A DNA stretch of 64,000 nt from an uncultured Oligoflexales bacterium (GTDB lineage: Bacteria > Bdellovibrionota_B > Oligoflexia > Oligoflexales > CAZLMG01), in assembly GCA_964560765.1 (NCBI GenBank), contig CAZLMG010000001.1, positions 202,903-266,902 on the forward strand, given 5' to 3'. The notes under the pieces were generated by a model. That model searched no databases, was not told the origin of the DNA, and was given only the letters and a program-made list of their open reading frames with translations. The first letter of the stretch is position 1; each line of letters starts with the position of its first letter. This document shows positions 911-18,556 of the stretch, in pieces. The position numbers and the translations under genes were made by a program.

Positions 911-920
911 GGGAACACCA

Positions 921-6009: not shown

Positions 6010-6852
6010 ATGCGCCTTGTTGTTTCAGCATTTCTGATGATGGCAGTGATCTACTCACCCATGGCAGTTGCCACTTCGTCCAGTGTTGGCGCGGATCAAA
6101 TTCCTGATGTAGCGGAGCAATTGTTTGCCGCCCGCGGCTCGTCACCCCAGGCGACGCATCAGGCGATTGCTGCCTATCGGCAATTACTCACCCGCCCGTT
6201 ATCGATTCTTGAACAGCATCACGTCGCCAAGCGACTCGCTCATCTGTATGCCTTCGCCGCTTTGGAAATCCCCATGTACCGCATGCAAGAGCGGCTCGTT
6301 ATTTACGAGGGCTGCCTGGATGTGACTCCTCATTTGGCACGCACGGGCCGCATTCTCGGGATGGTTGATTACTACTTTTGGCACGCCGCTTGTTTAACTC
6401 TCTGGTCGGAAGCTCGCGGGGAGCAAACGCTCATGAAACGCTCGGGTGAAATCATGCAACTGGTCGAAAGCGGCTTAGAGTTGGAATCAACCTATGAGGG
6501 CGGCGGCTTTGATCGCCTCATGGCGGAATTGTATGTGCGCCTTCCCGTGCGCAACCCGTACGGGCCCGCAGGAAGTCTGCCACTCGCGCGCCATCACATT
6601 CGCCAGTCTTTGACCTCTGCCCCTGACGAACGCTCCGCAAGTCCTGAGCTGGCCTCAGGTGACTACTACTATGAGTCATATTACATCTACGCCAAGACCA
6701 TGATCACCTGCGGTGAGCGCGAATCAGCCAGGACCCTTCTTCGCCTAGCTCTGCAACGAATTGACGATGGCGACGTGAATCCAGAGCGTGAGCCAGAGAC
6801 AATATTGGCAGCCCGTGGCCTCAAAGATTTACTCGACTCCATTAGCAAGTAG
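6010..6852 (+). CDS. exported helical-repeat (TPR/TatT-like) protein, function unknown
   Basis: The ORF track starts at TTG 5959. ATG 6010 gives MRLVVSAFLMMAVIYSPMAVATS, a signal peptide, with AGAGGG upstream. The helical-repeat composition and a central YEGGGFDRLMAELYVRLP stretch recall TatT-like TPR proteins. This is from memory only. Confidence 0.45.
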   Translation: MRLVVSAFLMMAVIYSPMAVATSSSVGADQIPDVAEQLFAARGSSPQATHQAIAAYRQLLTRPLSILEQHHVAKRLAHLYAFAALEIPMYRMQERLVIYEGCLDVTPHLARTGRILGMVDYYFWHAACLTLWSEARGEQTLMKRSGEIMQLVESGLELESTYEGGGFDRLMAELYVRLPVRNPYGPAGSLPLARHHIRQSLTSAPDERSASPELASGDYYYESYYIYAKTMITCGERESARTLLRLALQRIDDGDVNPEREPETILAARGLKDLLDSISK

Positions 6853-7693
6853 CCTCTGGCAAACGTGGTCGAAAGCGCTTGCGCTTCGAGGATACCAACG
6901 CCAACTGATCACGAAACTGCAGCAATTGTGCCACCATAGAAATCGCAATCTCTGGTGGCGTATTGTTGCCCAAAGGCAGGCCAAGTGGTGAAACCAGTTG
7001 CGCAATGTCCTCTGCCGAAAATCCTTCTGCACGCAATTCTCTTCGCACCCGTTCTGCCTTACCCACACTGCCGATCATGCCAAGAAAAGGCTGGCGACGC
7101 TGCCGCATCACCGCGGATAGTATAGGATAGTCAACGGCATGTCCCTGCGTCATCAACAATACAAAGGCATGCGCAGGAATCTGCGCCACGAAGTCGTTGA
7201 GCTCGGCCCGACAGGATGTCTGCAATCGCCCATGCGACGGCAGTTTATCCAGCCACTCTTGCCGCTGATCCACGCAGACGACCCGACATTCCAAGGTCAG
7301 CAGCAGGGGAATCAGCGCCTGAGCTACGTGTCCGGCGCCAAAGACGACAACACACCAGGCTGGATTGCCCAGGCGCTCAAAGAAGATCGAGACTTCTCCG
7401 CCGCAGGTCATACCCACGTCGTCTTGTAAATGCCACGTGACGAATTGATTCCGTGGCGAGGTGGGCTCACTCAGCCATTCGCGAGCTTGAGCAATCACAC
7501 GCGCTTCAATCTTGCCGCCGCCAATCGTCCCGGCCATCAGCCCTTGCTCCGTAACCACCACTTTCGCACCGATCGTTTGCGGAGCAGAGCCGCGAACAGC
7601 GACCAGGGTTGCTTGGACAAAAGCTGTCCCCGCTGCCGACAACCCCGCCATCAGTTGCAAAAGATCTTCCTCGTTTGGCCCCATGACCGTCAT
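6842..7693 (-). CDS. xdhC: xanthine dehydrogenase accessory/maturation factor XdhC
   Basis: XdhC/CoxI-like N-terminus (ATLVAVRGSAPQTIGAKVVV..GTIGGGKIEA) and a Rossmann-like VVVFGAGHVAQAL. Its start overlaps the xdhB stop by 4 nt. Confidence 0.85.
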   Translation of the reverse strand: MTVMGPNEEDLLQLMAGLSAAGTAFVQATLVAVRGSAPQTIGAKVVVTEQGLMAGTIGGGKIEARVIAQAREWLSEPTSPRNQFVTWHLQDDVGMTCGGEVSIFFERLGNPAWCVVVFGAGHVAQALIPLLLTLECRVVCVDQRQEWLDKLPSHGRLQTSCRAELNDFVAQIPAHAFVLLMTQGHAVDYPILSAVMRQRRQPFLGMIGSVGKAERVRRELRAEGFSAEDIAQLVSPLGLPLGNNTPPEIAISMVAQLLQFRDQLALVSSKRKRFRPRLPEATC

Positions 7694-10056
7694 GGCATCC
7701 TCATCAATAACGCCTCAGCCGTCGCCGGAACTGGTAAGTCAGCCAGATGCCCCCGAGGCAACGCGTAGGACAGGGCATTCTTACAGGCTGTCCAGACTGA
7801 GATTGCCAGCATCAGCGGCGGCTCACCAACCGCTTTACTACCCCTCACGTTTTTCTGATTCCGATCGTTTGGCCAAAGTTGCACGCGAAAATCCCGTGGA
7901 ATGTCGTGCACGCTGGGAATCTTGTAAGTGCTGGGAGAATGCGAAACCAGCATCCCCTTTTCATTATAGAAAAGGCTCTCAGTAGTCATCCAACCCATAC
8001 CTTGAACAAAAGCACCGGTGACCTGTCCGAGATCAATGCCCTTCAGGATCGATCGACCCACATCCATTAAGATATCCGTGCGCAGCAGCTTCACTTCCCC
8101 GGTGTATCGATCGACACTCACTTCCGAAACCGCGGCTCCCGTCGAGAAATAGAAAAATGGCTGGCCCTGCCCCGTCTCTTTGTTGAAATGGATACCGGGG
8201 TAAGTAAAGTATCCGTACTCACTCAGGGAAATGCGATTGAGATAGGCCTCATCGACAAGCTCAGTGAGGGAGATTCTCCAGCTCTGATTCTTTCGATGCC
8301 GGACCTCGCCGTCAATAAACTCCACGTCACTCGTATCTACGGTTCCCGTTACCTTGACCTCAGGAGCTGCGCCAGCGCCGGCTACCTTGCGCCCCCGCAA
8401 CGCAGCCGGACGCGCCCAGACGTGCAGTGCCAACTCGGCAAGACGTTGCCGTATTCTTTGTGCGGCGTCATGGGCAGCTGCTCCGTTAATATCCGACCCA
8501 CTCGACGCTGCGGTCGGTGATGTATTGGCATTCTTTTCCGTCGATGTCGGCATCAACCGCACGGCACCAAGCGTTATGCCAAAAACCTCAGCGACAACTC
8601 TTCCGATCTTACTATTAACTCCCTGGCCCATCTCCGTCGCACCTGTTGACACTTGTACGGTGCCATCGAGATGCATGTTGACGAGAGCATTTCCCTGATT
8701 GAGGAAACGCGTGGTGAAAGAAATACCAAATTTGACCGGCGTCATACTTAAACCGCGCACGACCCCCGCTGCTTTCGAGTTGTGTTCCTCGATGTCCCGG
8801 CGACGTTGGTCGTACTGCGCCGAGGAGCGCAGATGCGCCCACAATTCTGGGATTGGATTCTCCTCGACGAGTTGGCCGTAATGAGTGCGATTGCGCTCCG
8901 TTAACTGATAAAGGTTGCGCTGCCGAACATCGGCCGGGTCCAAGCCCAAAGTCTGGGCGATGTCCTCCAGGATGTGCTCGATGGTCAGCATACCCTTGGG
9001 TCCACCAAAGCCGCGAAAGGCGGTCGTCGGTTGCAGATTCGTTCTGCAAACCTGACCAACGACCCTTGCGTTGGGAAGAAAATAGGCATTGTCCAGGTGC
9101 AGCATGGCGCGTTCCATGATGGCCGGCGAAAGATCCGTATAAGCGCCTCCATCGGACAACATGGATACATCGAGGGCCAATATATGACCCGCCTCATCAA
9201 ATCCTACCCGGTAGGTGTTGTGGAACGGATTGCGCTTGCCGGTGATTCGCATATCGTCGTCTTTGCTTAAGACTAATCGCGCGGGTCGCTTGGTCCTGGC
9301 GGCGACCAATGCGGCATAAACGGCAAACGGCGCCGCTTGCGACTCCTTGCCACCGAATGCTCCACCCATACGCTTCACCACACAAACAACGCGGTGATAG
9401 GACAACCCCAATGCATCGGCTACCAGATGCTGCACTTCCGTCGGGTGTTGGCTCGATGCGTGCACTTCGATTGAGCCATCTTCCTGCGGATAAGCGATAG
9501 CCGCTTGCGACTCTAGGTAAAAATGATCTTGGCCGGCAATTCGCAATTCACCCTGCAACGTGTGCGGCGCTTTCGCCAGCGCCGCATCCACATCGCCGGT
9601 GGCAATCGTGCGCTTGAAACCGAGAAATTGGTTCTGAGCCTTTGCCATATCGATGGACAGAACGGCGGGCAGTTCTTCAATATCTAACTGTACAGCCCGC
9701 AGTCCCCGCGCCAGCGCGGACGGCGACTCGGCCGCAATCAAAGCGATTGCCTCACCCCAAAAATGGGTTTCTGATTCCGCCAGAAACGGTTGATCCTGAA
9801 TGATAGTTCCCCAGGAGTTATGGCGTAGATCGCGATGCGTAACAACAGCCACAACGCCCGCAATGCTGAGTGCAGGTTGCGCATCCAAGTGCCGTATACG
9901 CCCGCGTGCCACTGGTGAACCGAAGATGCCGACGTGCAACTCGCCAGGCAGAAAGGGCCGATCATCAATGTACACTGCCGCGCCTGAAGCAAGTTCTCGC
10001 GCTGCATCATGCGGAAAATCGGCCTCGTCGACGCCCTTTTTCACCGCCCGACTCAT
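7690..10056 (-). CDS. xdhB: xanthine dehydrogenase, molybdopterin-binding large subunit
   Basis: 788 aa with MGGAFGGKESQ (the GGxFGGK Mo-cofactor family motif) and overall aldehyde oxidase/XDH a/b-hammerhead architecture. Overlaps xdhA by 4 nt. Confidence 0.9.
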   Translation of the reverse strand: MSRAVKKGVDEADFPHDAARELASGAAVYIDDRPFLPGELHVGIFGSPVARGRIRHLDAQPALSIAGVVAVVTHRDLRHNSWGTIIQDQPFLAESETHFWGEAIALIAAESPSALARGLRAVQLDIEELPAVLSIDMAKAQNQFLGFKRTIATGDVDAALAKAPHTLQGELRIAGQDHFYLESQAAIAYPQEDGSIEVHASSQHPTEVQHLVADALGLSYHRVVCVVKRMGGAFGGKESQAAPFAVYAALVAARTKRPARLVLSKDDDMRITGKRNPFHNTYRVGFDEAGHILALDVSMLSDGGAYTDLSPAIMERAMLHLDNAYFLPNARVVGQVCRTNLQPTTAFRGFGGPKGMLTIEHILEDIAQTLGLDPADVRQRNLYQLTERNRTHYGQLVEENPIPELWAHLRSSAQYDQRRRDIEEHNSKAAGVVRGLSMTPVKFGISFTTRFLNQGNALVNMHLDGTVQVSTGATEMGQGVNSKIGRVVAEVFGITLGAVRLMPTSTEKNANTSPTAASSGSDINGAAAHDAAQRIRQRLAELALHVWARPAALRGRKVAGAGAAPEVKVTGTVDTSDVEFIDGEVRHRKNQSWRISLTELVDEAYLNRISLSEYGYFTYPGIHFNKETGQGQPFFYFSTGAAVSEVSVDRYTGEVKLLRTDILMDVGRSILKGIDLGQVTGAFVQGMGWMTTESLFYNEKGMLVSHSPSTYKIPSVHDIPRDFRVQLWPNDRNQKNVRGSKAVGEPPLMLAISVWTACKNALSYALPRGHLADLPVPATAEALLMRMP

Positions 10057-11492
10057 GGCGCACCTCGTGCGCTGGCAGCCTCGTCAACAAAACGTCGCAA
10101 CAAATTCGCCGCGAGACGCTCACGAAATTGGCGGCTGCCGCGCACATCGCTTAGTGGCGTGATTTCGCTCTGCAGCTGCTGAACAGCAGTTGCAACTGAA
10201 AACCCCTTCATTGGCTGCTGATTGAATCGGCTTTCCGTCTTCTTTAACCGCAATGTTGTTGCGGCAACACCGCCATAGGCGACCCGTACATCGCTCCAGC
10301 ATCCGTCTACCTCGCTCCAACAAAAGGCCGCGTTCACACAAGAAATATCTAAATCGCGCCTTTGCGACACCTTGTACAAACGATACCTCCTGCCAGCGAC
10401 CAATGGAATCTCCACAGCTGAGATCCACTCTTCGGGTTGCAGTGCCAATTCTTTGTAGCCACGATAAAGGGAGGTGATAGGTAACTGACGAGATCCGTCA
10501 GCCCCTTCGATGCAGACGCGAGCCTCGACCGCAAAAAGTAGCGGCAAGGTATCTCCTATCGGCGATGCATTGGCGACGTTGCCAACAAGTGTTGCCACGT
10601 TCTTGATCTGAGGCGAGGCAAAAATATGCAAGAAATCTGCAAACTCCGGCAGGGACTTCGCCACCGCTCCCTCCAACGAGGCCAGTGTCACGCGTGCGCC
10701 AACTCGAAGGGCTTGCGCGTCGATATCAATTTCATATAAGTCTGGTATCAGGTGCAGACTGATCACCTGTAACGGGTCAACGCGCCCCTTATTGATCTGC
10801 ACCCCGACATCCGTAGCTGCCGCCATAATGCGCAAGCCAGGATGCTGTTGACGCAGCACGGAAACGGCCGACAAACTCGTCGGTGCGACAAACATACGCT
10901 CACCGGCCCGAGCATCGATCCGCTGATCAGCATGAGCGCACAAATCAGATACGATCTCGTCCCGGTGATAGCGATCTGCCAAGGTCACATACCCATCTCT
11001 TTCGACCGCAAGCGCGGCATCGATAATGGGCTGGTAACCGGTGCAGCGGCAAAGGTTACCGGTCAAATGGTTCTGCACGCGCTTCGCATTAATTTCTTGT
11101 TCTTGCTCCAACATGCCGGTGATGGCCATCACCATGCCTGGAGTACAGAAGCCACACTGTCCACCGTGATGGGACACCATACTTTGCTGCACGGGAGAAG
11201 GTGTCATGCCATCGGCCAGACCCTCAATGGTCACAATGTGCGAACAGTCCAAGCTGTAGACCGGTGCAATGCAACTATTCATCACTTCGAATTGCAAACG
11301 CTTGCGCGCTCGGTCATTCAGCACCGTTCCTCGCAAGACCGTGCACGCGCCACAGTCACCCTCGGCACATACGATTTTGGTTCCAGTCTGACGCCGACCA
11401 TAACGCAGAAAGTTTGCGAGTGGCAAAAACAGGTTTTCCCCGCGGACTTCCACTCGCTGGCCATTGATATACAATAATGCGTAGTCGCGCAT
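10053..11492 (-). CDS. xdhA: xanthine dehydrogenase, [2Fe-2S]/FAD-binding small subunit
   Basis: CAEGDCGACTV and CGFCTPGMVM are two [2Fe-2S] motifs. The AAATDVGVQ FAD-binding domain and CO-dehydrogenase flavoprotein-like C-terminus follow. Confidence 0.9.
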   Translation of the reverse strand: MRDYALLYINGQRVEVRGENLFLPLANFLRYGRRQTGTKIVCAEGDCGACTVLRGTVLNDRARKRLQFEVMNSCIAPVYSLDCSHIVTIEGLADGMTPSPVQQSMVSHHGGQCGFCTPGMVMAITGMLEQEQEINAKRVQNHLTGNLCRCTGYQPIIDAALAVERDGYVTLADRYHRDEIVSDLCAHADQRIDARAGERMFVAPTSLSAVSVLRQQHPGLRIMAAATDVGVQINKGRVDPLQVISLHLIPDLYEIDIDAQALRVGARVTLASLEGAVAKSLPEFADFLHIFASPQIKNVATLVGNVANASPIGDTLPLLFAVEARVCIEGADGSRQLPITSLYRGYKELALQPEEWISAVEIPLVAGRRYRLYKVSQRRDLDISCVNAAFCWSEVDGCWSDVRVAYGGVAATTLRLKKTESRFNQQPMKGFSVATAVQQLQSEITPLSDVRGSRQFRERLAANLLRRFVDEAASARGAP

Positions 11493-11513: not shown

Positions 11514-12644
11514 TTAAGCGCGCTGACCTTCCATTGCTGCTGCCAAGGCTTGCGTGCAAATATCCACGTGCCTCTGATCGCAGCTCGCCCCCATGAGCCC
11601 AATGCGCCAAATCTTGCCGGACAGTGGGCCAAGACCAGCGCCAATCTCCACGCCATGCTTCTGCAGCAATTCGCGGCGAACCCCAGCCTCATCTATTCCG
11701 TTCGGCACCAACACGGCATTCAGTTGCGGCAAGCGTTCGCGCTCAGGCACTAACCAGTCAAGTCCGAGTGCCAAGAGTGAGCTTAGTAGTAGCTGATGCA
11801 TGTCTCGATGTCGTTGCCAGCGGGCCTTCAAACCCTCCTCCTGCAGCATTAACAACCCTTCGTGCAAGGCGTACAATGCATGAACTGGTGCCGTGTGATG
11901 ATAAGTTCGTCCCCCATCACCACTCCAGTAGTTCAGAATCAAATTGATATCCAAAAACCAACTTTGGACTGGCTTCCTGCGCGATTTAATCGCTGCAACG
12001 GCACGATCGCTGAAGGTGATGGGAGCGAGCCCAGGTGGGCAGGATAGGCATTTCTGGGTGCCCGAATAAACGACATCCAGCTTCCATTCATCGACGCGCA
12101 GCGGCGTACCTGCCAAGGATGTAACGGCGTCCACTAGACTCAGGCAGTCAAATTCATGGGCCAGCGCCCCCAGCGCTTGCGCATCGCTTAGGGCCCCTGT
12201 CGAGGTTTCAGCGTGCACAAACGCCAATACTTTTGTGTCACGATTTATCAGGAGCGCTTCGCGCACGGCCTCCACGTCGATGGCGCGTCCCCAAGGGCTA
12301 TCGACCACCACAACCACGGCACCGCACCGAGTCGCGATCTCGACCATACGTCCGCCAAAAACGCCATTGCAACACACCAAAACCTTATCACCAGGCTCTA
12401 ACAAATTCACCAGCGCCATCTCCATGGCGGCGCTGGCCGGAGCCGAAACGGGAAAGGTCACGGCATTGCGCGTCAAAAATGCGGCGCGAATCAGCTCCTT
12501 TAGTTCATCCATTAGCGCGACGAAGGCGGGATCCAGATGCCCGATGGTGGGACGCGCCATCGCTTGTAGGATGCGCGTTGGCACATCCGATGGACCTGGC
12601 CCCATCAGCACGCGTGTTGGCGGCGAAAACGAACTAACCATCAA
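11514..12644 (-). CDS. class V PLP aminotransferase (serine/alanine-glyoxylate or ureidoglycine-glyoxylate, PucG-like)
   Basis: N-terminal LMGPGPSDVP, the PLP-lysine context YSGTQKCLSCPPG, a length of 376 aa, and a position inside the purine operon. Confidence 0.8.
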   Translation of the reverse strand: MMVSSFSPPTRVLMGPGPSDVPTRILQAMARPTIGHLDPAFVALMDELKELIRAAFLTRNAVTFPVSAPASAAMEMALVNLLEPGDKVLVCCNGVFGGRMVEIATRCGAVVVVVDSPWGRAIDVEAVREALLINRDTKVLAFVHAETSTGALSDAQALGALAHEFDCLSLVDAVTSLAGTPLRVDEWKLDVVYSGTQKCLSCPPGLAPITFSDRAVAAIKSRRKPVQSWFLDINLILNYWSGDGGRTYHHTAPVHALYALHEGLLMLQEEGLKARWQRHRDMHQLLLSSLLALGLDWLVPERERLPQLNAVLVPNGIDEAGVRRELLQKHGVEIGAGLGPLSGKIWRIGLMGASCDQRHVDICTQALAAAMEGQRA

Positions 12645-13984
12645 TGACGTTCCCGTCGATTTTCCACAATCGCCATGAATGATTTACCCTGTACCTCTGC
12701 AAGTGTCAGGCCTGTGGCTAAAACCTCTTGTTCGGTGATGGCCCCGCAATTGAGCGCGCGTAAGAAATAATTCAGCAAGCCCTGTCCGGTAGCGGCATCA
12801 TCAAAAACATCGCCCACCAAGGTTGCTTTTGCGGCCTTGTCGATGAAATTCGTCAAGCGATTGGACGCACTGGCCAAACCCTGCAAGAAAAACGCATACA
12901 GCGCCCCGTAGCGCACCGGCAATTGAGCGGGATGCAAATCCCACCCTTGATAATACGCATGCCGCAGCGAATGGGTCACATGCTGACAGCTAAGGGCCCA
13001 GGCGCGGTGCACGACGCGGCGATTTTCCTCCCACTCTTGCTCGGATTTTGGCTCCTTATGAGGGCCAATGGGCATAACATTGGTCGCACCGTCAGACAGA
13101 AAGATACCCGTTCCCGCCAAGGCCACCTTCATCACGTGCCGAGCGAAGTCACAAGCAGGATGATCCATGACTTGCTGATCAGCAGTTATATCGACCGACG
13201 CCGTATAGTCGTAAGTACCAAAATGTGCGCCGCGACAACGTACGCCAGCGAGGCGAACGAACTCATAGAGTGCAACGTGGCCATTCGAATGGAAGACTGA
13301 CTGAGGAGTTTCAATCATCATTTCCATAAGTAGTGAGTCGGCAGGCAACCCTGACTTACTTTCCAGCGCCATAAGGATTTCACAAAACACAGCCACTTGC
13401 TGGGGATGCGTGATTTTTGGCAAGGTCACCACAAAACCTGGCGGCAGCTTGCCACCCGTACGGTCCAACAAAGTCGCCAGAAATATATCCAGCGTTCGAA
13501 TGGAGCGTCGCTTATTCTCTTCGGAAAGAGATTTGATGCGAATGCCAGTGAACGGCGAGATCGTGCCGTTGGCCATGCCCATGGCCAGTTCTGCCGCCGC
13601 TTGGACCGCTGTCTCGTCTTCTTCTGCATCCGGTCGATAGCCGTAGCCATCTTCAAAATCGATACGAAAGTCCTCGACTGCTTCTGCCGCCAGCTTTCGG
13701 CCAACTCGGGCATGCACCTGCTCCATCATCGGACTCATGGGCAACCCGAGCCCTGCAGCAAACTCCGCCGGTGTGCGGGCATATTGAGCAAAGGTTTGTC
13801 GTGCCATTTCACCGATGCGCTGCGTGGTCGCTGACTTGAAGAGATGCGCGCCACCATACACCGTGTGTACGGGCTGACGATCGCCGCGCTCTCCACGATA
13901 ATAGTCTAGCGTCTCCTGATTGGGCCCACGCAGTCGCTCCAACATGGCCTGACGTTGCGCCTGCTGCAGAATTTCTTTCGCCAC
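12641..13984 (-). CDS. uncharacterised enzyme-like protein, possibly malate synthase/HpcH-type TIM barrel
   Basis: 447 aa with 4-nt overlaps at both ends inside the purine operon. The only motif I can point to is FRIDFEDGYG, which recalls the DFED catalytic loop of malate synthases. It is too short for malate synthase A or G. Confidence 0.6.
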   Translation of the reverse strand: MAKEILQQAQRQAMLERLRGPNQETLDYYRGERGDRQPVHTVYGGAHLFKSATTQRIGEMARQTFAQYARTPAEFAAGLGLPMSPMMEQVHARVGRKLAAEAVEDFRIDFEDGYGYRPDAEEDETAVQAAAELAMGMANGTISPFTGIRIKSLSEENKRRSIRTLDIFLATLLDRTGGKLPPGFVVTLPKITHPQQVAVFCEILMALESKSGLPADSLLMEMMIETPQSVFHSNGHVALYEFVRLAGVRCRGAHFGTYDYTASVDITADQQVMDHPACDFARHVMKVALAGTGIFLSDGATNVMPIGPHKEPKSEQEWEENRRVVHRAWALSCQHVTHSLRHAYYQGWDLHPAQLPVRYGALYAFFLQGLASASNRLTNFIDKAAKATLVGDVFDDAATGQGLLNYFLRALNCGAITEQEVLATGLTLAEVQGKSFMAIVENRRERH

Positions 13985-13986
13985 AA

Positions 13987-14328
13987 TTAACTCCCGCGAT
14001 AAGTAGAAAAACCCCAGCCGCTAATCAGCAGAGGAACGTGGTAATGACTCACACCTTCGGTCACTTGAAACACGATATCCGCATAGGGATAAAATGTATC
14101 GCGCCCTTGCATTGCGAAGTAGGGACCTGTTTCGAATCGAAGGCGATACACTCCCGCCACTAACTGTTTACCTTTCGGCAACACGTCCTTCCAACGCCCA
14201 TCGGCGTCAGTCCGCCCACTGGCCAGTTCTTGCCAATCCTCTCCATCCAGGCGGCAGAGAAAAGCCGACATACCCTCGGCAGGCAGTCCTCGCGAGGTGT
14301 CGAGAACATGTGTCGAAATCGTACTCAT
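13987..14328 (-). CDS. uraH: 5-hydroxyisourate hydrolase (transthyretin-like)
   Basis: Has the hallmark C-terminal tetrapeptide YRGS and an N-terminal STHVLDTSRGLPAEG. I start it at ATG 14328, which forms ATGA with the uraD stop. The ORF track start is 14364. Confidence 0.9.
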   Translation of the reverse strand: MSTISTHVLDTSRGLPAEGMSAFLCRLDGEDWQELASGRTDADGRWKDVLPKGKQLVAGVYRLRFETGPYFAMQGRDTFYPYADIVFQVTEGVSHYHVPLLISGWGFSTYRGS

Positions 14329-14825
14329 AGTAACTTCTCCAAGCGCAACTTGGTTATCTTCCACTGCTCAGTCGCAGCTTGTGCCAACTCCTCTGAACGC
14401 GTGCGCAACACTCGCTCGCGGATAAGATCCAGCATCTCCGGCGCGGTTTTACCCGTGGCGCAAACAATGAAAATGAAACCGAACTTCGATTCATAGGTGG
14501 CATTGAGTTGCGCTAACTCAGTGAGGATGGAATCAGATGCCGCATCCATACCGGACTGCTCGTTTTCGGACCAGGCACGGTCGCCACCGTATTTTGCCCG
14601 CAACGAATGCATATCGCCAATTTTCGGGTGACCAGCAAACGCTTCCAGCCAATCCGCCTCGGGTAGCACCCACCAGGCCTCGCGCCCACGCCGGAGCAAG
14701 TCATCAGCATCCAAAAATGGTCGCGACGCCAACATCGTTTCGACCCAACGTCGACTCGAACAACACCGGGCCAGTGCCGCACGGGCGTGATCCGCCTCCC
14801 AGTTATTCAGCGACTGCACATTCAC
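14325..14825 (-). CDS. uraD: OHCU (2-oxo-4-hydroxy-4-carboxy-5-ureidoimidazoline) decarboxylase
   Basis: CCSSRRWVETMLASRPF ... AFAGHPKIGD matches the OHCU decarboxylase signature region. 166 aa. Confidence 0.9.
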   Translation of the reverse strand: MNVQSLNNWEADHARAALARCCSSRRWVETMLASRPFLDADDLLRRGREAWWVLPEADWLEAFAGHPKIGDMHSLRAKYGGDRAWSENEQSGMDAASDSILTELAQLNATYESKFGFIFIVCATGKTAPEMLDLIRERVLRTRSEELAQAATEQWKITKLRLEKLL

Positions 14826-15814
14826 GGAGCAACAATCCCCCAGCAGCGCATTCGACTGATGCCACCATCAGGATAAATGTTCAAACGCACATGACTGACC
14901 GGACCAACGTCCTGAAGTTCCTTGTCGAAGAAATGTTGCGTGTCAGCGGAAAGTTTCGTTTCCGGCAACATCACCTTCCACTCCTCATCTTGCAGCTTCA
15001 AGGGATCGCGCCCCTTGGCATCACAGGCCCAGATAGCGGCACGATCCGGATAATTGCCCTTGAAATGGGCTGTATCGATTTCAACTTTGTGAATGCGACC
15101 ACGGGTCGCGCATTCAACAACGCACCAGTCGTAGCCTGGAACTCGGCGACGACGCGTTTCCCACCCATCCCCCATATTCACACCACGCCCCGGCATGATG
15201 AGATTGTCCTTTGAACCAAAGAACATATCGTTGCAACCAGCTACCCGTCCGCCATTAGCGGCGGCAACCAAATCGATTTCTTTTCCAGCGACGCGTTCGA
15301 CATCAAGTACAGCACGCCCATAGACGCGAAAGCGCGCCACGCCGCCATCCGGGTAAATCTGCAGACGTACATGCGTCGCCAACTTTGGAGTCGGCACGGT
15401 GAAGAAATTTTGGCTGCCAGGCTGCAATGGCGACTTCGGCAGCAGCGGCTGCCAATCGACATTGTTGTCGGGATCGCTGGCGGAGTAGCAAACTTCGACC
15501 GAGGCAAAGGGCGGGTGATTGCCTAAGAAGTGGTTCGTATCGATATCGAGCTCTTCAATTTTGCCGGCCGCCCCCAGGCGTAAAATGCAGGCATCATTGC
15601 CTGGAACACGCCGGCGCTTGGACTCCCAGCCATCCATCCACTTGCCCACATCCGTGTACTTATCTGGAATAAAAATTCCGCGTCCCGGCTTGATTAAATT
15701 CTCTTTTTCCGCAAAGAACTCATCATTGGCCCACAACACCTTGGTACCCAATCGGGCATCCGCCAAATTCACCCATGTTGAAGTCCTAACATTTGCATCC
15801 ATCGGCCCAGCCAT
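14822..15814 (-). CDS. alc: allantoicase
   Basis: Duplicated allantoicase repeat (ANDEFFAEKENLIKP...GWESKRRR and NDMFFGSKDNLIMP...GWETRRRR). The start is set at the internal ATG whose A is shared with the allB stop (TGATG at 15812-15816). The ORF track start is 15859. Confidence 0.9.
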   Translation of the reverse strand: MAGPMDANVRTSTWVNLADARLGTKVLWANDEFFAEKENLIKPGRGIFIPDKYTDVGKWMDGWESKRRRVPGNDACILRLGAAGKIEELDIDTNHFLGNHPPFASVEVCYSASDPDNNVDWQPLLPKSPLQPGSQNFFTVPTPKLATHVRLQIYPDGGVARFRVYGRAVLDVERVAGKEIDLVAAANGGRVAGCNDMFFGSKDNLIMPGRGVNMGDGWETRRRRVPGYDWCVVECATRGRIHKVEIDTAHFKGNYPDRAAIWACDAKGRDPLKLQDEEWKVMLPETKLSADTQHFFDKELQDVGPVSHVRLNIYPDGGISRMRCWGIVAP

Positions 15815-17175
15815 CACGTCATCCTTAGAAGAGGTTTTCCCACTGCTTCGCCCACACACTGCCCATCACGAAAAATACATGCCCCACCAAGATAGGTGCG
15901 ATTCACCACACCGCGCAGGGTCATGTCTACGTACGGCGTAATCGAATGCTTATGCCGCAACTGTTCAGGTCGGACTTGAAAACTTGCGTCCGGATCCCAA
16001 ACGACAAAATCAGCCGCACACCCTGCCACCATTCGGCCCCTGGTCGCGCCCAGTCGCCCCAGTAAGCGCGTAGGGCCGAGACACAACAGCCTTACCAAGT
16101 CGGGCAGCGAACCGCCGCGCTGCTGCCAGCCAGTCCACACTAAAGGCAGTGTCAATTGCAAACCTGCAATTCCGCCCCAGGCCAAATCCAAATCTTCGTC
16201 CTGCATGCGCTTCAGTGCGGGAGTGCAAGGCGAGTGGTCAGAAACCACAAAATCAATCGTTCGCTCAACCAGGCCACGCCAAAGCGAACTCTGATTTTCG
16301 CCATCGCGAATAGGAGGGCAGCACTTGAACAACTGCCGCGGCACCTCTTCCTGGGCATCCACTCCCTCCGATGAAAACGTAAGGTAATGGGGACATGTCT
16401 CCACCGTCAGCGGCAAACCCTCTGCCTTGGCTTCGGCAATGAGCGGTAAAGCCGACGCTGCCGCCAAATGCACGATGTGCGCATGGGTGCCATGTTTGCG
16501 AACGCCCTCAATCACACCGCGTATGGCGTCCTCTTCCCAACGCGCCGGCCGGGACGCGACAAAATCACTGTAGGTCCGCAGTGGCGCGGTCGCTGCCGTA
16601 GGCCCCTCCCATTCGGCGTGAAAAAGATACGGCACGCCAAACGCTCGCAGGATCGGCATGGCTGCATCCACGTGCTGCCATGTTACTGGGGGAAACTCAG
16701 GAATGCCCGAATCGATGAGAAAGGACTTTACACCTAAAACACCAGCATCTAACAAGGCCTCAAGGTCGGGAAGATTGTCGGCGGTCACTCCGCCCCAAAA
16801 GCCACAATTGACCCAGAGCTTGCCCCGAACTTCAGCCAGCTTGGTGGCAAAAGCCGGCGCTGTCGTCGTCACTGGTAGGCAGTTGAGCGGCATGTCGACT
16901 ACGGTGGTAATCCCACCAGCGGCTGCAGCTTGCGTGGCCGTGGCAAAGCCCTCCCACTCGGTACGACCGGGCTCGTTGATATGGACGTGTGAGTCCACCA
17001 ATCCGGGCATAATCACAAGATTGCCCAGATCCTCAACGTCTCCGGAAAAATCGACGGGCAGAGCCTCAGCCACGCTCAGAATCCGACCATCTTGATAGAC
17101 GACGTAAGCGGGCACGACCTGATCATCGATCACAACACGACTACTGCGTATGGCACGCGGTTCATCAGGGCGCAT
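15814..17175 (-). CDS. allB: allantoinase (cyclic amidohydrolase)
   Basis: VMPGLVDSHVHINEPGRTEWEGFATATQAAAAGGITTVVDMP is the typical allantoinase metal-binding N-terminal region. The start is ambiguous (17175 or 17220); either overlaps the puuD 3' end. Confidence 0.9.
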   Translation of the reverse strand: MRPDEPRAIRSSRVVIDDQVVPAYVVYQDGRILSVAEALPVDFSGDVEDLGNLVIMPGLVDSHVHINEPGRTEWEGFATATQAAAAGGITTVVDMPLNCLPVTTTAPAFATKLAEVRGKLWVNCGFWGGVTADNLPDLEALLDAGVLGVKSFLIDSGIPEFPPVTWQHVDAAMPILRAFGVPYLFHAEWEGPTAATAPLRTYSDFVASRPARWEEDAIRGVIEGVRKHGTHAHIVHLAAASALPLIAEAKAEGLPLTVETCPHYLTFSSEGVDAQEEVPRQLFKCCPPIRDGENQSSLWRGLVERTIDFVVSDHSPCTPALKRMQDEDLDLAWGGIAGLQLTLPLVWTGWQQRGGSLPDLVRLLCLGPTRLLGRLGATRGRMVAGCAADFVVWDPDASFQVRPEQLRHKHSITPYVDMTLRGVVNRTYLGGACIFRDGQCVGEAVGKPLLRMT

Positions 17176-18385
17176 GCATTGCTCCTTGACGCGCCCGTTG
17201 TGCGGACCGCCAACCGGCATACCATCTCCCCAACATTTGCCGCTCGACGGCTGATAGCTGAGTCTTATTTCCGACTGGCATGGTCATCGTTTCCACAGCT
17301 CGAAAATGGATGCGCTCGGCAAACCGCTCAATCTCAGCATCGGTCTCCAAAGTAACACCACCAGGCATGGGCCCGAAGGTGTTATCTTTGGGCTCACGCG
17401 CATGGCAGGGAACACAGCGGGTATGAATGATCGCACGTACCTCCGATAATGATACCGGTGTCGCCGAGGCCTGCTCGATGGGCATTGGCTGCTGATTCAC
17501 CACCGCTGCCATCGCCGCAGCCGTACCCAACAGCGGGGCCAAAACCCAAAGCCACGGTTGGCGTTTTGTCTGCAAAATCATCGCATGCCGCGCCAACATG
17601 CCGCCAACCACGAGGAGCAATAGCAGGAGCCAATTCAGCGAATGGCCATAGGCCTGGGGCGCATGGTTGCTCAGCATGATGAATAACACCGGCAGCGTTA
17701 GATAGCTGTTGTGTACAGATCGCCGCTTGGCCTTCTTACCTTCTTCAAAATCCGGCGTCGTTCCAGCTTTAGTTGCCGCAATCATGCGGCTCTGTGACGG
17801 TAAGATGCGGATCCAAACGTTCAGCACCATGATCGTTCCGAACATGGCACCGAGCTGCATAAAAGCACCGCGCCCACTGTAGATCTGACAGAGGAAATAT
17901 GCTGTAGCCACCATCATGCTCGACATGATGGGGTGGGCTACCCAAGCGGTTCTTGACCACCGACTGAGGAAGAAGAGATCATACACGATCCAACTGATCG
18001 CCAACAAAACTATGCTCAATCCTGCTGCCATCCCTGGGGTTAAGACAGGCATGGTCGGATTTAACAACAGCAGGCTATTGCCAGCGTAGTAGACAAATCC
18101 GAGTAGAAAAATGCCGGTAATCCACGTAATGGTTGCTTCCCACTTGAACCAATGCAGAACCGTCGGCATCGATCCAGGGCCAATTTTACGCCGTTCGACT
18201 TGATAGAATCCGCCGCTGTGCACCATCCACAGCGAGCCTTCAGAAAGTGGATCTTGACCAGAACTCGGCTCCAAATTGGCATCAAGCCACATGAAGTAAA
18301 AGGAATTACCAATCCACATGATGCCGGCAATGACATGCAGCCAGCGCATCAGGTAGATGAGCCAATCGTTTGGAACCCATTCCAT
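17165..18385 (-). CDS. puuD: membrane-bound cytochrome-c urate hydroxylase PuuD
   Basis: A polytopic membrane N-terminal region plus a C-terminal mono-haem c domain (RCVPCHAREPKD). This matches the PuuD architecture, and it is the first gene of the urate-to-glyoxylate operon. Confidence 0.8.
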   Translation of the reverse strand: MEWVPNDWLIYLMRWLHVIAGIMWIGNSFYFMWLDANLEPSSGQDPLSEGSLWMVHSGGFYQVERRKIGPGSMPTVLHWFKWEATITWITGIFLLGFVYYAGNSLLLLNPTMPVLTPGMAAGLSIVLLAISWIVYDLFFLSRWSRTAWVAHPIMSSMMVATAYFLCQIYSGRGAFMQLGAMFGTIMVLNVWIRILPSQSRMIAATKAGTTPDFEEGKKAKRRSVHNSYLTLPVLFIMLSNHAPQAYGHSLNWLLLLLLVVGGMLARHAMILQTKRQPWLWVLAPLLGTAAAMAAVVNQQPMPIEQASATPVSLSEVRAIIHTRCVPCHAREPKDNTFGPMPGGVTLETDAEIERFAERIHFRAVETMTMPVGNKTQLSAVERQMLGRWYAGWRSAQRARQGAMHAP

Positions 18386-18421: not shown

Positions 18422-18556
18422 CGAAATTTATTGAATTTTAGGGAGAAAATCAAGCTCACTTCCCCTGACGGCCCGAGCATCTCAGCGACAGATCGCGTAG
18501 AATGCCTAGACAGCCTTGAAGTCTCGAATATTACCCAAGAATACTCGGGGAGCTAC

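What the first reader, a model, noticed from the sequence alone, without database searches (positions are those of the whole stretch)
12641..13984. Uncharacterised 447-aa protein embedded in the purine operon; candidate for the missing ureidoglycolate or glyoxylate step
The gene overlaps the downstream aminotransferase gene by 4 nt and starts 2 nt after the uraH stop, so it is almost certainly co-translated with them. I cannot assign it to a named family. The only landmark is FRIDFEDGYGYRPDAEED, which resembles the DFED catalytic loop of malate synthase and HpcH-type TIM barrels. It is much shorter than malate synthase A or G. Its position is where an enzyme acting on ureidoglycolate or glyoxylate, the end products of the pathway, would be expected.
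Basis: inference. Interest (0 to 1): 0.55.

Follow-up and report, generated by a model that had tools for sequence, protein, structure and literature searches.

The report
Likely bacterial ureidoglycolate lyase (DUF6986)
This gene, in a family of unknown function (DUF6986), encodes a distant relative of malate synthase that sits in purine-breakdown operons exactly where the usual ureidoglycolate lyase (AllA) is missing, so it probably performs that last step (ureidoglycolate to glyoxylate plus urea) in many bacterial phyla.

Summary
Window 12641-13984 (minus strand) encodes a 447-aa protein. It starts 2 nt after the uraH stop and overlaps a downstream AGXT-type glyoxylate aminotransferase gene.

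It does belong to a named family: Pfam DUF6986 (E=5e-177), which has no assigned function and no literature. A confident AlphaFold model and profile searches place it in the malate synthase / CitE / malyl-CoA-lyase barrel superfamily. The family's most conserved residues are that superfamily's catalytic positions: DFED, Arg149, the Mg ligands Glu225 and Asp259, W..HP, and the C-terminal Asp396.

About three quarters of 80 homologous loci, from more than 10 phyla, lie in urate/allantoin operons next to uraH, uraD, alc and allB. None of about 90 DUF6986 neighbourhoods holds an AllA-type ureidoglycolate lyase.

In 80 loci anchored on allantoicase instead, 18 have DUF6986 only, 19 have AllA only and none have both. 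The two genes often fill the same operon slot. The one genuine malate synthase found was accompanied by AllA.

Zebrafish malate-synthase-like protein is a proven ureidoglycolate lyase (PNAS 2023), which gives precedent.

Best reading (about 0.6): a non-orthologous bacterial ureidoglycolate lyase. Main rival (about 0.2): a compact glyoxylate-consuming malate synthase or malyl-CoA lyase. No enzymology exists.

The parts
12641..13984 (-). DUF6986 gene, 447 aa; predicted Mg-dependent (S)-ureidoglycolate lyase of the malate synthase/CitE barrel superfamily
   Evidence: ORF. PF22484 at E=4.8e-177, full length. AF2 model pLDDT 89.7, pTM 0.87. Foldseek top hits are malate synthase A 3CUZ/3CV2 and CitE-like 3R4I/3QQW.
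13649..13660 (-).
   Evidence: Coordinates checked. D109 is invariant and F110/E111/D112 are 98% conserved in 129 representatives only 35-56% identical to the query. The hhalign pairing with AceB VKVFMADFEDSLA is recovered but has E=0.23 alone.
13532..13546 (-). G147-I-R149-I-K151; candidate oxyanion/enolate-stabilising Arg (counterpart by motif of AceB C-R166-V-R-G; MSG Arg338)
   Evidence: R149 is invariant in 129 representatives and in alignment A3. The motif comparison is by eye. The role of the Arg in malate synthase is from PMC3112382.
13307..13318 (-). M-I-E225-T; first Mg2+ ligand (aligns with AceB E250)
   Evidence: hhalign A1 and A3 vs E. coli AceB, probability 83% and 93%, E=9e-6 and 4e-7. 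98% conserved.
13205..13225 (-). H-F-G-T257-Y-D259-Y; second Mg2+ ligand D259 (aligns with AceB D278); T257 aligns with AceB R276
   Evidence: hhalign. D259 is 98% conserved. Position 257 is A/T/V/P in the four commonest residues and never Arg among them. R276 is one of two glyoxylate-site residues replaced in zebrafish MS-like UGL.
12923..12949 (-). Q-G-W348-D-L-H351-P352-A-Q; counterpart of AceB G-T-W365-I-A-H-P-G and CitE-like M-W-S-I-H-P-A-Q
   Evidence: hmmsearch of A3 vs 3R4I, one alignment spanning 183-422, E=2.1e-7. W348 is 95% conserved, H351/P352 92%.
12788..12805 (-). F-D395-D396-A-A-T at the N-cap of helix 397-412 in the C-terminal helical domain; candidate general acid/base (counterpart of AceB M-E-D447-A-A-T and of the Asp in malyl-CoA lyase LVDIAS)
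   Evidence: Motif. Aligned to HDRAS of 3R4I and to LVDIAS of 4L9Y (the 4L9Y second stretch is not significant alone). Not recovered by hhalign against an AceB C-terminal fragment. D395 is 95% and D396 91% conserved. Helix boundaries. The location of the malate synthase catalytic base is from PMC3112382.
13838..13879 (-). R36-QPVHTVYGGAHL-F49: family-specific, highly conserved N-terminal segment; possible mobile lid or inter-subunit element
   Evidence: Invariant or nearly invariant in A1. Residues 36-44 are the only stretch of the model with pLDDT below 50. The role is inferred.
13987..14364 (-). uraH (5-hydroxyisourate hydrolase); likely true start is the ATG at 14328, overlapping the uraD stop (ATGA)
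   Evidence: PF00576, and TIGR02962 above its cutoff. Junction read.
14325..14825 (-). uraD (OHCU decarboxylase)
   Evidence: PF09349; TIGR03180 and NF010372 above cutoff.
14822..15859 (-). alc (allantoicase; produces ureidoglycolate + urea); likely start is the ATG at 15814
   Evidence: PF03561, two repeats; TIGR02961 at 420 bits against a cutoff of 278. Start.
15814..17220 (-). allB (allantoinase)
   Evidence: TIGR03178 at 508 bits against a cutoff of 358.
17165..18385 (-). puuD-type membrane urate oxidase
   Evidence: PF06181 Urate_ox_N, E=1e-97.
11514..12644 (-). AGXT-family (class V) glyoxylate aminotransferase, translationally coupled to the DUF6986 gene; proposed to convert the glyoxylate product to glycine
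   Evidence: PF00266. Best PDB relatives are alanine-glyoxylate aminotransferase 1VJO (E=6e-104), human AGXT (about 1e-86) and PucG 3ISL (6e-84). Overlap read.
6842..11492 (-). xdhA (10053-11492), xdhB (7690-10056), xdhC (6842-7693): xanthine dehydrogenase and its maturation factor, at the distal end of the same minus-strand gene string
   Evidence: Pfam domains. ATGA overlaps at both junctions.

Best explanation
The gene encodes a bacterial (S)-ureidoglycolate lyase (urea-forming, EC 4.3.2.3) built on the malate synthase / CitE / malyl-CoA-lyase beta/alpha barrel. It would be a non-orthologous replacement for the cupin-type AllA.

Proposed pathway in this operon: XdhABC make urate; PuuD, UraH and UraD convert it to allantoin; AllB opens it to allantoate; allantoicase releases the first urea and (S)-ureidoglycolate. 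The DUF6986 enzyme then cleaves ureidoglycolate to glyoxylate and a second urea, and the co-translated AGXT-type aminotransferase converts glyoxylate to glycine.

Proposed mechanism, inferred by analogy with the reverse of the malate synthase condensation step. The substrate's carboxylate and C2-hydroxyl chelate a Mg2+ held by Glu225 and Asp259, with the DFED loop organising the metal's water shell. Arg149 polarises the C2 oxygen. Asp396 (or Asp395), on the flexible loop that N-caps helix 397-412 of the C-terminal domain, acts as general acid/base. It protonates the departing ureido nitrogen as the C2-O collapses to the aldehyde of glyoxylate. This is the C-N analogue of the C-C cleavage performed by malyl-CoA lyase.

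Shown here: fold, superfamily, conservation of these residues, gene context, and mutual exclusivity with AllA. Inferred: substrate, reaction, metal dependence and the residue roles.
For: (1) Superfamily. AF2 model pLDDT 89.7. The top 50 listed Foldseek PDB hits are all malate synthase A/G/H, CitE-like or HpcH-family proteins. Profile A3 vs PDB gives 3R4I at 2e-7, malyl-CoA lyases at 5e-6 and 2e-5, and MSA at 4e-4. hhalign vs E. coli AceB gives probability 93%, E=4e-7.
(2) Across 129 representatives only 35-56% identical to the query, the positions that remain at least 97% conserved include D109-F-E-D112, R149, E225 and D259. W348, D349, D395 and D396 are 91-96% conserved.
(3) Context anchored on DUF6986. 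Of 80 genome loci from more than 10 phyla, 59 have uraH, 56 uraD, 50 alc, 44 allB and 33 puuD within 10 kb, usually adjacent. Unbiased ORF clustering adds only uricase, XdhABC and guanine deaminase as recurrent purine neighbours. The association persists at 38-40% identity (P0231; Nocardia) and in a six-gene Chloracidobacterium operon, allB-alc-uraD-uraH-uricase-DUF6986.
(4) No AllA in 1.42 Mb of DUF6986 neighbourhoods even at E<=10, while the positive control scores 1e-42. No AllD, AllE, GlxR or canonical AceB (AceB aligns only weakly with DUF6986 itself); one weak Gcl-like and one AllC hit.
(5) Reciprocal test anchored on allantoicase: DUF6986 only 18, AllA only 19, both 0. With at least 4 kb on each side: 11, 9, 0, and 6 with neither; Fisher one-sided p=0.0016. 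The genes share an operon slot: AllB-Alc-UraD-UraH-AllA (L165) versus AllB-Alc-UraD-UraH-DUF6986 (L166, L150, L099).
(6) The only genuine malate synthase found near alc (L156, 52% identical to AceB) is accompanied by AllA. This is the criterion Dembech et al. use to separate real malate synthases from UGLs.
(7) Precedent. Zebrafish malate-synthase-like protein is an (S)-ureidoglycolate lyase with no MS activity, and it has lost Arg276. The DUF6986 position aligned to Arg276 is small or aliphatic, never Arg among the commonest residues.
(8) The downstream, overlapping gene is a glyoxylate aminotransferase, which fits a glyoxylate producer. The pair recurs in L129.
Against: No biochemical data exist for any DUF6986 member.

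The full malate synthase / malyl-CoA-lyase catalytic set is retained, including Trp348, which is replaced in the zebrafish UGL. The Mg ligands are also retained, whereas the zebrafish UGL is metal-independent. So acyl-CoA chemistry cannot be excluded.

A sister subgroup (P0250, P0205) is coupled to a family-III CoA-transferase, which shows the family can be CoA-linked.

About a quarter of close homologues, and several distant ones (P0186, P0200, the Streptomyces plasmid copy), are not next to purine genes.

Exclusivity with AllA was measured on loci of at most 10 kb per side, not on whole genomes. It was not corrected for phylogeny, and AllA loci look mostly proteobacterial.

The pairing of D396 with the malate synthase catalytic Asp rests on a motif match and on CitE/malyl-CoA-lyase alignments. 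hhalign against the AceB C-terminus did not recover it.

By CIP bookkeeping, the spatial analogue of (S)-malyl-CoA is (R)-ureidoglycolate, not (S). This last point is my own reasoning.
Confidence: 0.6

Rival explanations
1. It is a compact malate synthase or malyl-CoA-lyase-type enzyme that disposes of the glyoxylate end product: glyoxylate + acetyl-CoA to malyl-CoA or malate. This would feed purine carbon into the TCA cycle, as DAL7 does in yeast, aceB1 in Streptomyces, or glcB in some purine operons. Ureidoglycolate would then be cleaved by an unlinked enzyme, by allantoicase itself, or spontaneously.
For: The closest folds and profiles are malate synthases and malyl-CoA lyases. The Mg ligands, the Arg, the W..HP loop and a C-terminal Asp are all conserved. 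Haloferax malate synthase H is reported as about 430 aa (from memory; the 5TAO chain matched here is 356 residues), close to this protein's 447 aa. A DUF6986 subgroup is coupled to a CoA-transferase. Genuine malate synthase genes do occur in purine operons (L156).
Against: Where a genuine malate synthase sits in a purine operon it accompanies AllA (L156; PMC10120013). DUF6986 never does: 0 of about 90 neighbourhoods, and 0 of 18 alc-anchored loci. It also occupies AllA's slot in otherwise syntenic operons. No CoA-related gene, isocitrate lyase or glycolate oxidase recurs next to the purine-type members. The purine-type members differ from the CoA-linked subgroup in the loop after strand 6 and around the catalytic Asp: Y258H, T261A, T399M, G400A, L403Q. 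In this window the next gene is already a glyoxylate consumer. The protein is below the Pfam gathering threshold for MS_TIM-barrel (21.5 against 26.4 bits).
Confidence: 0.2
2. It catalyses a different, undescribed Mg-dependent lyase or aldolase reaction on a purine-derived C2/C3 acid. Examples: condensing glyoxylate with another carbon nucleophile such as pyruvate (HpcH-like), or acting on another ureide. Alternatively it is bifunctional, cleaving ureidoglycolate and condensing the bound glyoxylate with acetyl-CoA without releasing it.
For: The superfamily is mechanistically diverse: aldolases, lyases and synthases. The family has context-diverse subgroups, including neighbours such as GCV_T-like, ETF and CoA-transferase genes. 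The complete malate-synthase-like catalytic set is retained.
Against: No additional conserved partner gene that would supply a co-substrate was found. The only unfilled step in these otherwise complete urate-to-ureidoglycolate operons is ureidoglycolate cleavage. Mutual exclusivity with AllA is most simply explained by the same reaction.
Confidence: 0.12
3. The linkage to purine genes is an inherited gene-order accident in related lineages, and the protein has an unrelated housekeeping role.
For: About 25% of close homologues, and several distant ones, have no purine neighbours. The statistics were not corrected for phylogeny.
Against: The linkage holds across Bdellovibrionota, Acidobacteriota, Bacteroidota, Myxococcota, Actinomycetota, Verrucomicrobiota, Melainabacteria and others. 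It survives different gene orders and strands, and it persists down to 38% identity. Junctions in this window show translational coupling.
Confidence: 0.05

Closest known systems
Eukaryotic malate-synthase-like ureidoglycolate lyase (zebrafish DrMSL/UGL; Dembech et al., PNAS 2023, PMC10120013)
   Same: Both are malate-synthase-superfamily barrels. Both are genomically or co-evolutionarily tied to allantoicase and uricase. Both occur where no AllA/DAL3-type UGL is present. The position equivalent to MSA Arg276 is replaced by a small or aliphatic residue in both. The proposed reaction is identical: (S)-ureidoglycolate to glyoxylate + urea.
   Different: DrMSL is a true member of the malate synthase A orthogroup, about 62 kDa and peroxisomal, and its UGL clade is reported as eukaryote-only. 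DUF6986 is a separate Pfam family that does not reach the MS_TIM-barrel threshold. It is 447 aa, keeps Trp348 (DrMSL has W365M), and keeps strictly conserved Mg ligands, whereas DrMSL is metal-independent. Any shared function would be an independent recruitment.
AllA / DAL3 ureidoglycolate lyase (cupin fold, PF04115)
   Same: Same proposed reaction. Same operon position directly after alc or uraH. Mutually exclusive occurrence in alc loci.
   Different: AllA is about 160 aa with an unrelated cupin fold. There is no sequence similarity.
Malate synthase A/G/H (EC 2.3.3.9; PDB 3CUZ, 1D8C, 2GQ3, 5TAO)
   Same: Best structural matches. The Mg ligands align (E225/D259 with AceB E250/D278). The DFED, Arg, W..HP and [DE]-D-A-A-T motifs are co-linear.
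   Different: Below the Pfam threshold. It is 86 aa shorter than MSA and about 280 aa shorter than MSG. TM-score is only about 0.46. Arg276 is absent. The context lacks glyoxylate-shunt or glycolate genes. It never co-occurs with AllA, whereas real malate synthases in purine operons do.
CitE-like / malyl-CoA lyase family (PF03328; PDB 3R4I, 3QQW, 4L9Y, 5UGR)
   Same: Best sequence-profile matches (2e-7 to 2e-5). The alignment spans the barrel strands to the C-terminal Asp. A DUF6986 subgroup sits next to a family-III CoA-transferase, as itaconate and malyl-CoA pathways do.
   Different: CitE-like proteins are about 280-340 aa and lack the roughly 100-residue N-terminal helical region and the conserved RQPVHTVYGG segment. 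The purine-type DUF6986 members have no CoA-related neighbours.

Membership tests
Pfam DUF6986 (PF22484) | Score above the gathering threshold over the full model | tested here: met
   589.3 bits against a cutoff of 27; residues 22-438 match model positions 5-407 of 408.
Malate synthase (PF01274 MS_TIM-barrel; EC 2.3.3.9) | Pfam gathering threshold | tested here: not met
   21.5 bits against a cutoff of 26.4; only residues 183-264 match.
Malate synthase (PF01274 MS_TIM-barrel; EC 2.3.3.9) | Two carboxylate Mg2+ ligands on barrel strands (AceB E250, D278) | tested here: met
   hhalign pairs E225 with E250 and D259 with D278; probability 83-93%. Both are 98% conserved.
Malate synthase (PF01274 MS_TIM-barrel; EC 2.3.3.9) | Catalytic Asp from the C-terminal domain at a helix N-terminus (MSG D631, MSH D388, AceB D447) and the partner Arg (MSG R338) | tested here: inconclusive
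   The motifs FDDAAT vs MEDAAT and GIRIK vs CRVRG are co-linear. D396 lies at the N-cap of helix 397-412. It aligns to the Asp of CitE-like and malyl-CoA lyase proteins. hhalign vs AceB fragments was not significant.
Malate synthase (PF01274 MS_TIM-barrel; EC 2.3.3.9) | Conserved acetyl-CoA binding site | not testable with these tools
   No residue-level structural superposition or model coordinates were available. The 3CUZ paper and the PNAS supplement were not held.
Malate synthase (PF01274 MS_TIM-barrel; EC 2.3.3.9) | Glyoxylate-site Arg276 (MSA numbering) | tested here: not met
   The aligned position 257 is Thr here, and A/T/V/P are the commonest residues in the family.
Eukaryotic MS-like ureidoglycolate lyase (Dembech 2023) | Membership of the malate synthase A orthogroup, UGL clade | tested here: not met
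   It is a separate Pfam family with only remote similarity to MSA. The UGL clade is reported as eukaryote-only.
Eukaryotic MS-like ureidoglycolate lyase (Dembech 2023) | R276 and W365 both substituted | tested here: inconclusive
   The R276 equivalent is substituted by small residues. The W365 equivalent (W348) is retained in 95% of representatives.
Eukaryotic MS-like ureidoglycolate lyase (Dembech 2023) | Association with allantoicase/uricase and absence of an AllA/DAL3-type UGL | tested here: met
   50 of 80 loci have alc. There are 0 AllA hits in 1.42 Mb. DUF6986 and AllA counts are 18 and 19 with 0 overlap. This was tested at locus level only, not on whole genomes.
Eukaryotic MS-like ureidoglycolate lyase (Dembech 2023) | Measured (S)-ureidoglycolate to glyoxylate + urea activity | not testable with these tools
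   Requires enzymology.
AllA-type ureidoglycolate lyase (PF04115) | Cupin fold / sequence similarity to AllA | tested here: not met
   No Pfam hit. The model is a beta/alpha barrel.
CitE / HpcH-HpaI (PF03328) | Pfam match above threshold | tested here: not met
   No PF03328 hit for the query at E<=0.01. Some homologues carry precomputed or faint PF03328 hits. Profile-level homology to 3R4I is E=2e-7.

The most novel reading that the evidence does not exclude
DUF6986 is a third, independently evolved family of ureidoglycolate lyase, after the cupin AllA/DAL3 and the eukaryotic malate-synthase-like UGL. It fills the last-step gap of allantoicase-type purine catabolism in Bacteroidota, Acidobacteriota, Actinomycetota, Bdellovibrionota, Myxococcota and other phyla. 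Bacteria and eukaryotes would then have separately converted a glyoxylate-binding malate synthase/CitE barrel from C-C to C-N lyase chemistry. A sister DUF6986 subgroup would remain an acyl-CoA lyase. A less likely extension (under 0.1) is that the retained full malate synthase machinery makes it bifunctional, passing glyoxylate directly to acetyl-CoA.
Probability: 0.55. Interest if true: 0.72.

Novelty: new variant of a known kind. Interest (0 to 1): 0.62.

Why it matters
If this is right, a large domain-of-unknown-function family gets a function. The family has at least 8000 clusters at 90% identity and about 2700 at 50%. A pathway gap in bacterial purine and ureide nitrogen recycling would also close. 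Annotation pipelines would currently report the allantoin pathway as incomplete in many soil, freshwater and marine Bacteroidota, Acidobacteriota and Actinomycetota, because allA is absent there. The misleading legacy names 'phosphoenolpyruvate kinase' and 'citrate lyase beta subunit' could be corrected. It would also be a second, independent case of a malate-synthase-type barrel being re-used to cleave ureidoglycolate, which strengthens the evolutionary link between glyoxylate and purine metabolism proposed in 2023. The prediction can be tested directly with an established assay.

Tried and rejected
- Single-sequence phmmer against the PDB found nothing relevant.
- NCBIfam has no model for the protein.
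- A literature search for 'DUF6986', and for combinations of allantoicase, ureidoglycolate, citrate lyase, HpcH and phosphoenolpyruvate kinase, found no prior functional assignment.
- hhalign of the profile against N- and C-terminal fragments of AceB gave E=0.23 and 0.35. The DFED pairing was recovered and the DAAT pairing was not. The catalytic-Asp equivalence to malate synthase is therefore motif-level only. Support came instead from CitE/malyl-CoA-lyase alignments with a more diverse profile.
- The exact-sequence contig look-up for the window protein failed.
- The 3CUZ structure paper and the PNAS supplement were not held, so acetyl-CoA-site residues could not be mapped.
- I rejected a PucG-like (ureidoglycine-glyoxylate) role for the neighbouring aminotransferase. 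No allantoate amidohydrolase or ureidoglycine aminohydrolase is present, and the closest relative is alanine-glyoxylate aminotransferase.
- I rejected the aminotransferase as an obligate partner: 0 of 80 genome loci and 1 of 80 alc loci carry it.
- In alc loci with neither AllA nor DUF6986 I looked for a third candidate. The neighbours were unrelated (FTCD, EVE, AhpC and others).
- An M49-like peptidase downstream in Pyrinomonadaceae loci looks like lineage-specific synteny, not a functional partner.


Full report
OBSERVATION. I read both junctions directly. The uraH stop TAA is followed by TT and then GTG, with a GGGAG box 7 nt upstream. The stop TGA of the target overlaps the start of the next gene: TTGATG gives a 4-nt overlap with a TTG start, or 1 nt with an ATG start. 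The motif FRIDFEDGYGYRPDAEED is residues 106-123. The gene belongs to a ten-gene minus-strand string, puuD-allB-alc-uraD-uraH-X-AGXT-xdhA-xdhB-xdhC (18385 to 6842). Its members were identified by Pfam and NCBIfam. Most of its junctions are ATGA- or GTGA-type overlaps. GC content of the gene (0.548) matches the window (0.551).

WHAT FAMILY. It gives a full-length match to Pfam DUF6986 (PF22484) at E=4.8e-177, plus a sub-threshold hit to the malate synthase TIM barrel (21.5 against 26.4 bits). NCBIfam has no model, and no paper in the library mentions DUF6986. The family is large: at least 8000 clusters at 90% identity and 2748 representatives at 50% identity with E<=1e-3. Sources call its members 'phosphoenolpyruvate kinase', 'citrate lyase beta subunit', 'aldolase' or 'DUF6986 family protein'. 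The first name probably derives from a weak resemblance to PTS enzyme I, 'phosphoenolpyruvate-protein kinase' (E=0.065).

FOLD AND ACTIVE SITE. An AlphaFold2 model built on 50 homologues is confident (pLDDT 89.7, pTM 0.87). It shows an N-terminal helical region, a beta/alpha barrel (strands at 105-109, 145-149, 185-188, 219-224, 250-255 and 295-298) and a C-terminal helical domain. The top 50 listed Foldseek PDB hits are E. coli malate synthase A (3CUZ, 3CV2), CitE-like lyases (3R4I, 3QQW), malate synthase G, Haloferax malate synthase H and one HpcH/HpaI-family protein. TM-scores normalised to the query are about 0.45-0.49, so this is the right superfamily but no close solved relative exists.

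Sequence profiles agree. The 50-sequence profile hits only malyl-CoA lyase and malate synthases in the PDB. A more diverse 128-sequence profile gives 3R4I at 2e-7, malyl-CoA lyases at 5e-6 and 2e-5, and malate synthase A at 4e-4. hhalign against E. coli AceB gives 93% probability, E=4e-7.

These alignments pair Glu225 and Asp259 with the Mg2+ ligands Glu250 and Asp278 of AceB. By inspection, the other malate synthase signatures occur in the same order: FRIDFEDG vs MADFEDS, GIRIK vs CRVRG, QGWDLHP vs GTWIAHP, and FDDAAT vs MEDAAT, which carries AceB Asp447. Asp396 sits at the N-cap of helix 397-412, on a lower-confidence loop. That is the position described for the malate synthase catalytic base (PMC3112382).

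The support for these pairings is uneven. The W..HP and Asp396 pairings are backed by a single significant alignment to 3R4I spanning 183-422, and by the malyl-CoA lyase alignment, where Asp396 meets the Asp of LVDIAS. hhalign against isolated AceB fragments recovered the DFED pairing without significance and did not recover DAAT. The equivalence to AceB Asp447 is therefore motif-level.

The strongest point is conservation. In 129 full-length representatives only 35-56% identical to the query, the positions at least 97% conserved include D109, F110, E111, D112, R149, E225 and D259. W348, D349, D395 and D396 are 91-96% conserved.

GENOMIC CONTEXT ANCHORED ON THE PROTEIN. I examined 80 loci from one-genome-per-species contigs. 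They come from Bdellovibrionota, Ignavibacteria, Acidobacteriota, Bacteroidota, Myxococcota, Melainabacteria, Actinomycetota, Verrucomicrobiota and others. Within 10 kb, 59 carry uraH, 56 uraD, 50 alc, 44 allB, 33 puuD and 17 xdhAB, usually adjacent and on the same strand. Among the 33 loci with full 10-kb flanks, about three quarters have at least two purine genes.

Unbiased clustering of all neighbouring ORFs added only uricase (14 loci, median 92 nt away), XdhC and guanine deaminase. A lineage-specific M49-like peptidase also appeared.

The association persists in distant members: a Chloracidobacterium operon allB-alc-uraD-uraH-uricase-DUF6986, P0231 at about 40% identity, and Nocardia farcinica at 38%.

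It is not universal. P0186, P0200 and a Streptomyces plasmid copy have unrelated neighbours. P0250 and P0205 sit directly downstream of a family-III CoA-transferase, with a MaoC-type hydratase in one case, which is an acyl-CoA-lyase context. These CoA-linked members keep the catalytic core. They differ from the purine-context set in the loop after strand 6 and around the Asp396 loop: Y258H, T261A, Q271D/N, C278S, A300P, T399M, G400A, L403Q.

WHICH STEP? The operons encode every step from xanthine or urate to ureidoglycolate. They encode no ureidoglycolate lyase. E. coli and Acinetobacter AllA find nothing in 1.42 Mb of DUF6986 neighbourhoods plus the window, even at E<=10, while the two AllA proteins find each other at 1e-42. 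AllD, AllE, GlxR and canonical AceB are also absent; AceB aligns only weakly, with DUF6986 itself, and one locus has a weak Gcl-like hit. AllC occurs once.

I then reversed the anchor and collected 80 metagenomic loci found with allantoicase. Of these, 18 contain DUF6986, 19 contain AllA, none contain both, and 43 contain neither; the last group is mostly short contigs. With at least 4 kb on each side of alc (n=26) the counts are 11, 9, 0 and 6, giving Fisher one-sided p=0.0016. This is not phylogenetically corrected.

The two genes fill the same slot in otherwise syntenic operons. L165 reads AllB-Alc-UraD-UraH-AllA-PuuD, and L166, L150 and L099 read AllB-Alc-UraD-UraH-DUF6986. The baseline alc-allA adjacency is also seen in an annotated Acinetobacter plasmid. 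The only locus with a genuine malate synthase (L156, 52% identical to AceB) also has AllA.

PRECEDENT. Dembech et al. (PNAS 2023, PMC10120013) showed that zebrafish malate-synthase-like protein is an (S)-ureidoglycolate lyase. It releases urea, has no malate synthase activity and is metal-independent. Its glyoxylate site is preserved except for R276I and W365M, and its acetyl-CoA site is not conserved. Its clade is eukaryote-only. [quoted passage not shown] By that criterion DUF6986 behaves like a UGL, not like a malate synthase. The DUF6986 residue aligned with Arg276 is Thr here and A/T/V/P across the family, never Arg among the commonest residues. Trp348, aligned with Trp365, is retained.

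THE NEIGHBOUR. The overlapping downstream gene is an AGXT-family aminotransferase. Its best PDB relative is alanine-glyoxylate aminotransferase 1VJO (E=6e-104), followed by human AGXT and PucG. No ureidoglycine-producing enzyme is present, so its likely role is glyoxylate to glycine. That fits a glyoxylate producer immediately upstream. The pairing is rare: 0 of 80 genome loci, and one alc-anchored locus, L129.

CONCLUSION. The most likely function is a Mg-dependent (S)-ureidoglycolate lyase that replaces AllA (confidence about 0.6). The mechanism would be the C-N analogue of malyl-CoA cleavage. Ureidoglycolate chelates the Glu225/Asp259-bound metal through its carboxylate and C2-OH. Arg149 polarises the oxygen. 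Asp396/395 protonates the leaving urea nitrogen. These mechanistic roles are inferred.

The main rival (about 0.2) is a compact malate synthase or malyl-CoA lyase that consumes glyoxylate. The retained catalytic set, the closeness to malyl-CoA lyases and the CoA-linked sister subgroup keep it alive. It does not explain the exclusivity with AllA, the shared operon slot, or the lack of any CoA-related neighbour. Other chemistry (about 0.12) and accidental linkage (about 0.05) are less likely.

The family is known only as a DUF. Its assignment as a bacterial UGL does not appear in the libraries searched. I rate it a new variant of a known kind, with moderately high interest, and it can be tested directly with the published UGL assay.

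Noticed in passing
L090 5146-6498 (P0250); L095 8001-9380, L096, L097 (P0205): A DUF6986 subgroup about 37% identical to the query sits directly downstream of a family-III CoA-transferase, overlapping it in L090. In L090 the pair is preceded by a MaoC/Htd2-type hydratase. This resembles itaconate or malyl-CoA pathway operons and suggests an acyl-CoA lyase sub-family with distinct residues around the catalytic Asp loop.
   Followed up: partly
window 13838-13879 (-), residues 36-49 of the DUF6986 protein: The segment RQPVHTVYGGAHLF is invariant or nearly invariant in close homologues, yet residues 36-44 are the only part of the AlphaFold model with pLDDT below 50. It has no obvious counterpart in malate synthase. 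It may be a mobile lid or an inter-subunit element.
   Followed up: no
window 27357-29036 (-); tandem array 27450-28137: A 559-aa ORF has an N-terminal N6/N4 DNA methylase domain. It is followed by about 650 bp of tandem repeats (33-nt unit x19; 102-nt super-unit x5.9) that encode FGDRNERPARS / RDFGDQAARPPR repeats. This is an unusual low-complexity tail on a methyltransferase.
   Followed up: partly
window 18431-19801 (+) and 19660-20616 (+): A multi-haem cytochrome c (PF13447, many CxxCH motifs) is divergently transcribed from puuD, the cytochrome-c-type membrane urate oxidase. An overlapping 318-aa membrane-like ORF with no Pfam match follows it. It could be an electron acceptor or partner for PuuD.
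   Followed up: no
window 31389-31733 and 31818-33023 (+): A PhoX-type alkaline phosphatase appears split into two ORFs. The second matches PhoX model positions 100-515, and the first carries a Tat-like N-terminus. This may be a frameshift, a pseudogene or a sequencing error.
   Followed up: no
window 20645-21619 and 21629-22603 (-); 3598-5379 (+); 810-3650 (+): Two adjacent 324-aa ORFs and a 593-aa ORF have no Pfam match. A 946-aa ORF has only C-terminal WD40 repeats. All are uncharacterised genes flanking the purine operon.
   Followed up: no
L156 (metagenome contig Ga0335076_10003435) 10001-13108: This locus reads alc-allA-aceB: a genuine malate synthase A (52% identical to E. coli AceB) lies directly after AllA in a purine cluster. 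It is a bacterial example of the 'real malate synthase plus dedicated UGL' arrangement described for yeast DAL7/DAL3.
   Followed up: partly
PDB hits 2BG5/2XZ7/6VBJ to profile A3: The DUF6986 profile weakly matches PTS enzyme I, deposited as 'phosphoenolpyruvate-protein kinase' (E=0.065). This probably explains the legacy GenBank name 'phosphoenolpyruvate kinase' carried by many family members.
   Followed up: partly
L010, L011, L013, L034, L037, L040, L043, L050, L055, L065 (about 20-700 nt (median 50) downstream of DUF6986): In these ten loci, mostly Pyrinomonadaceae/Blastocatellia, DUF6986 is followed on the same strand by a secreted M49-like peptidase of about 557 aa. In several of these loci the purine genes are not within 10 kb. 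Correspondingly, some Pyrinomonadaceae-like alc operons have neither AllA nor DUF6986 nearby.
   Followed up: partly
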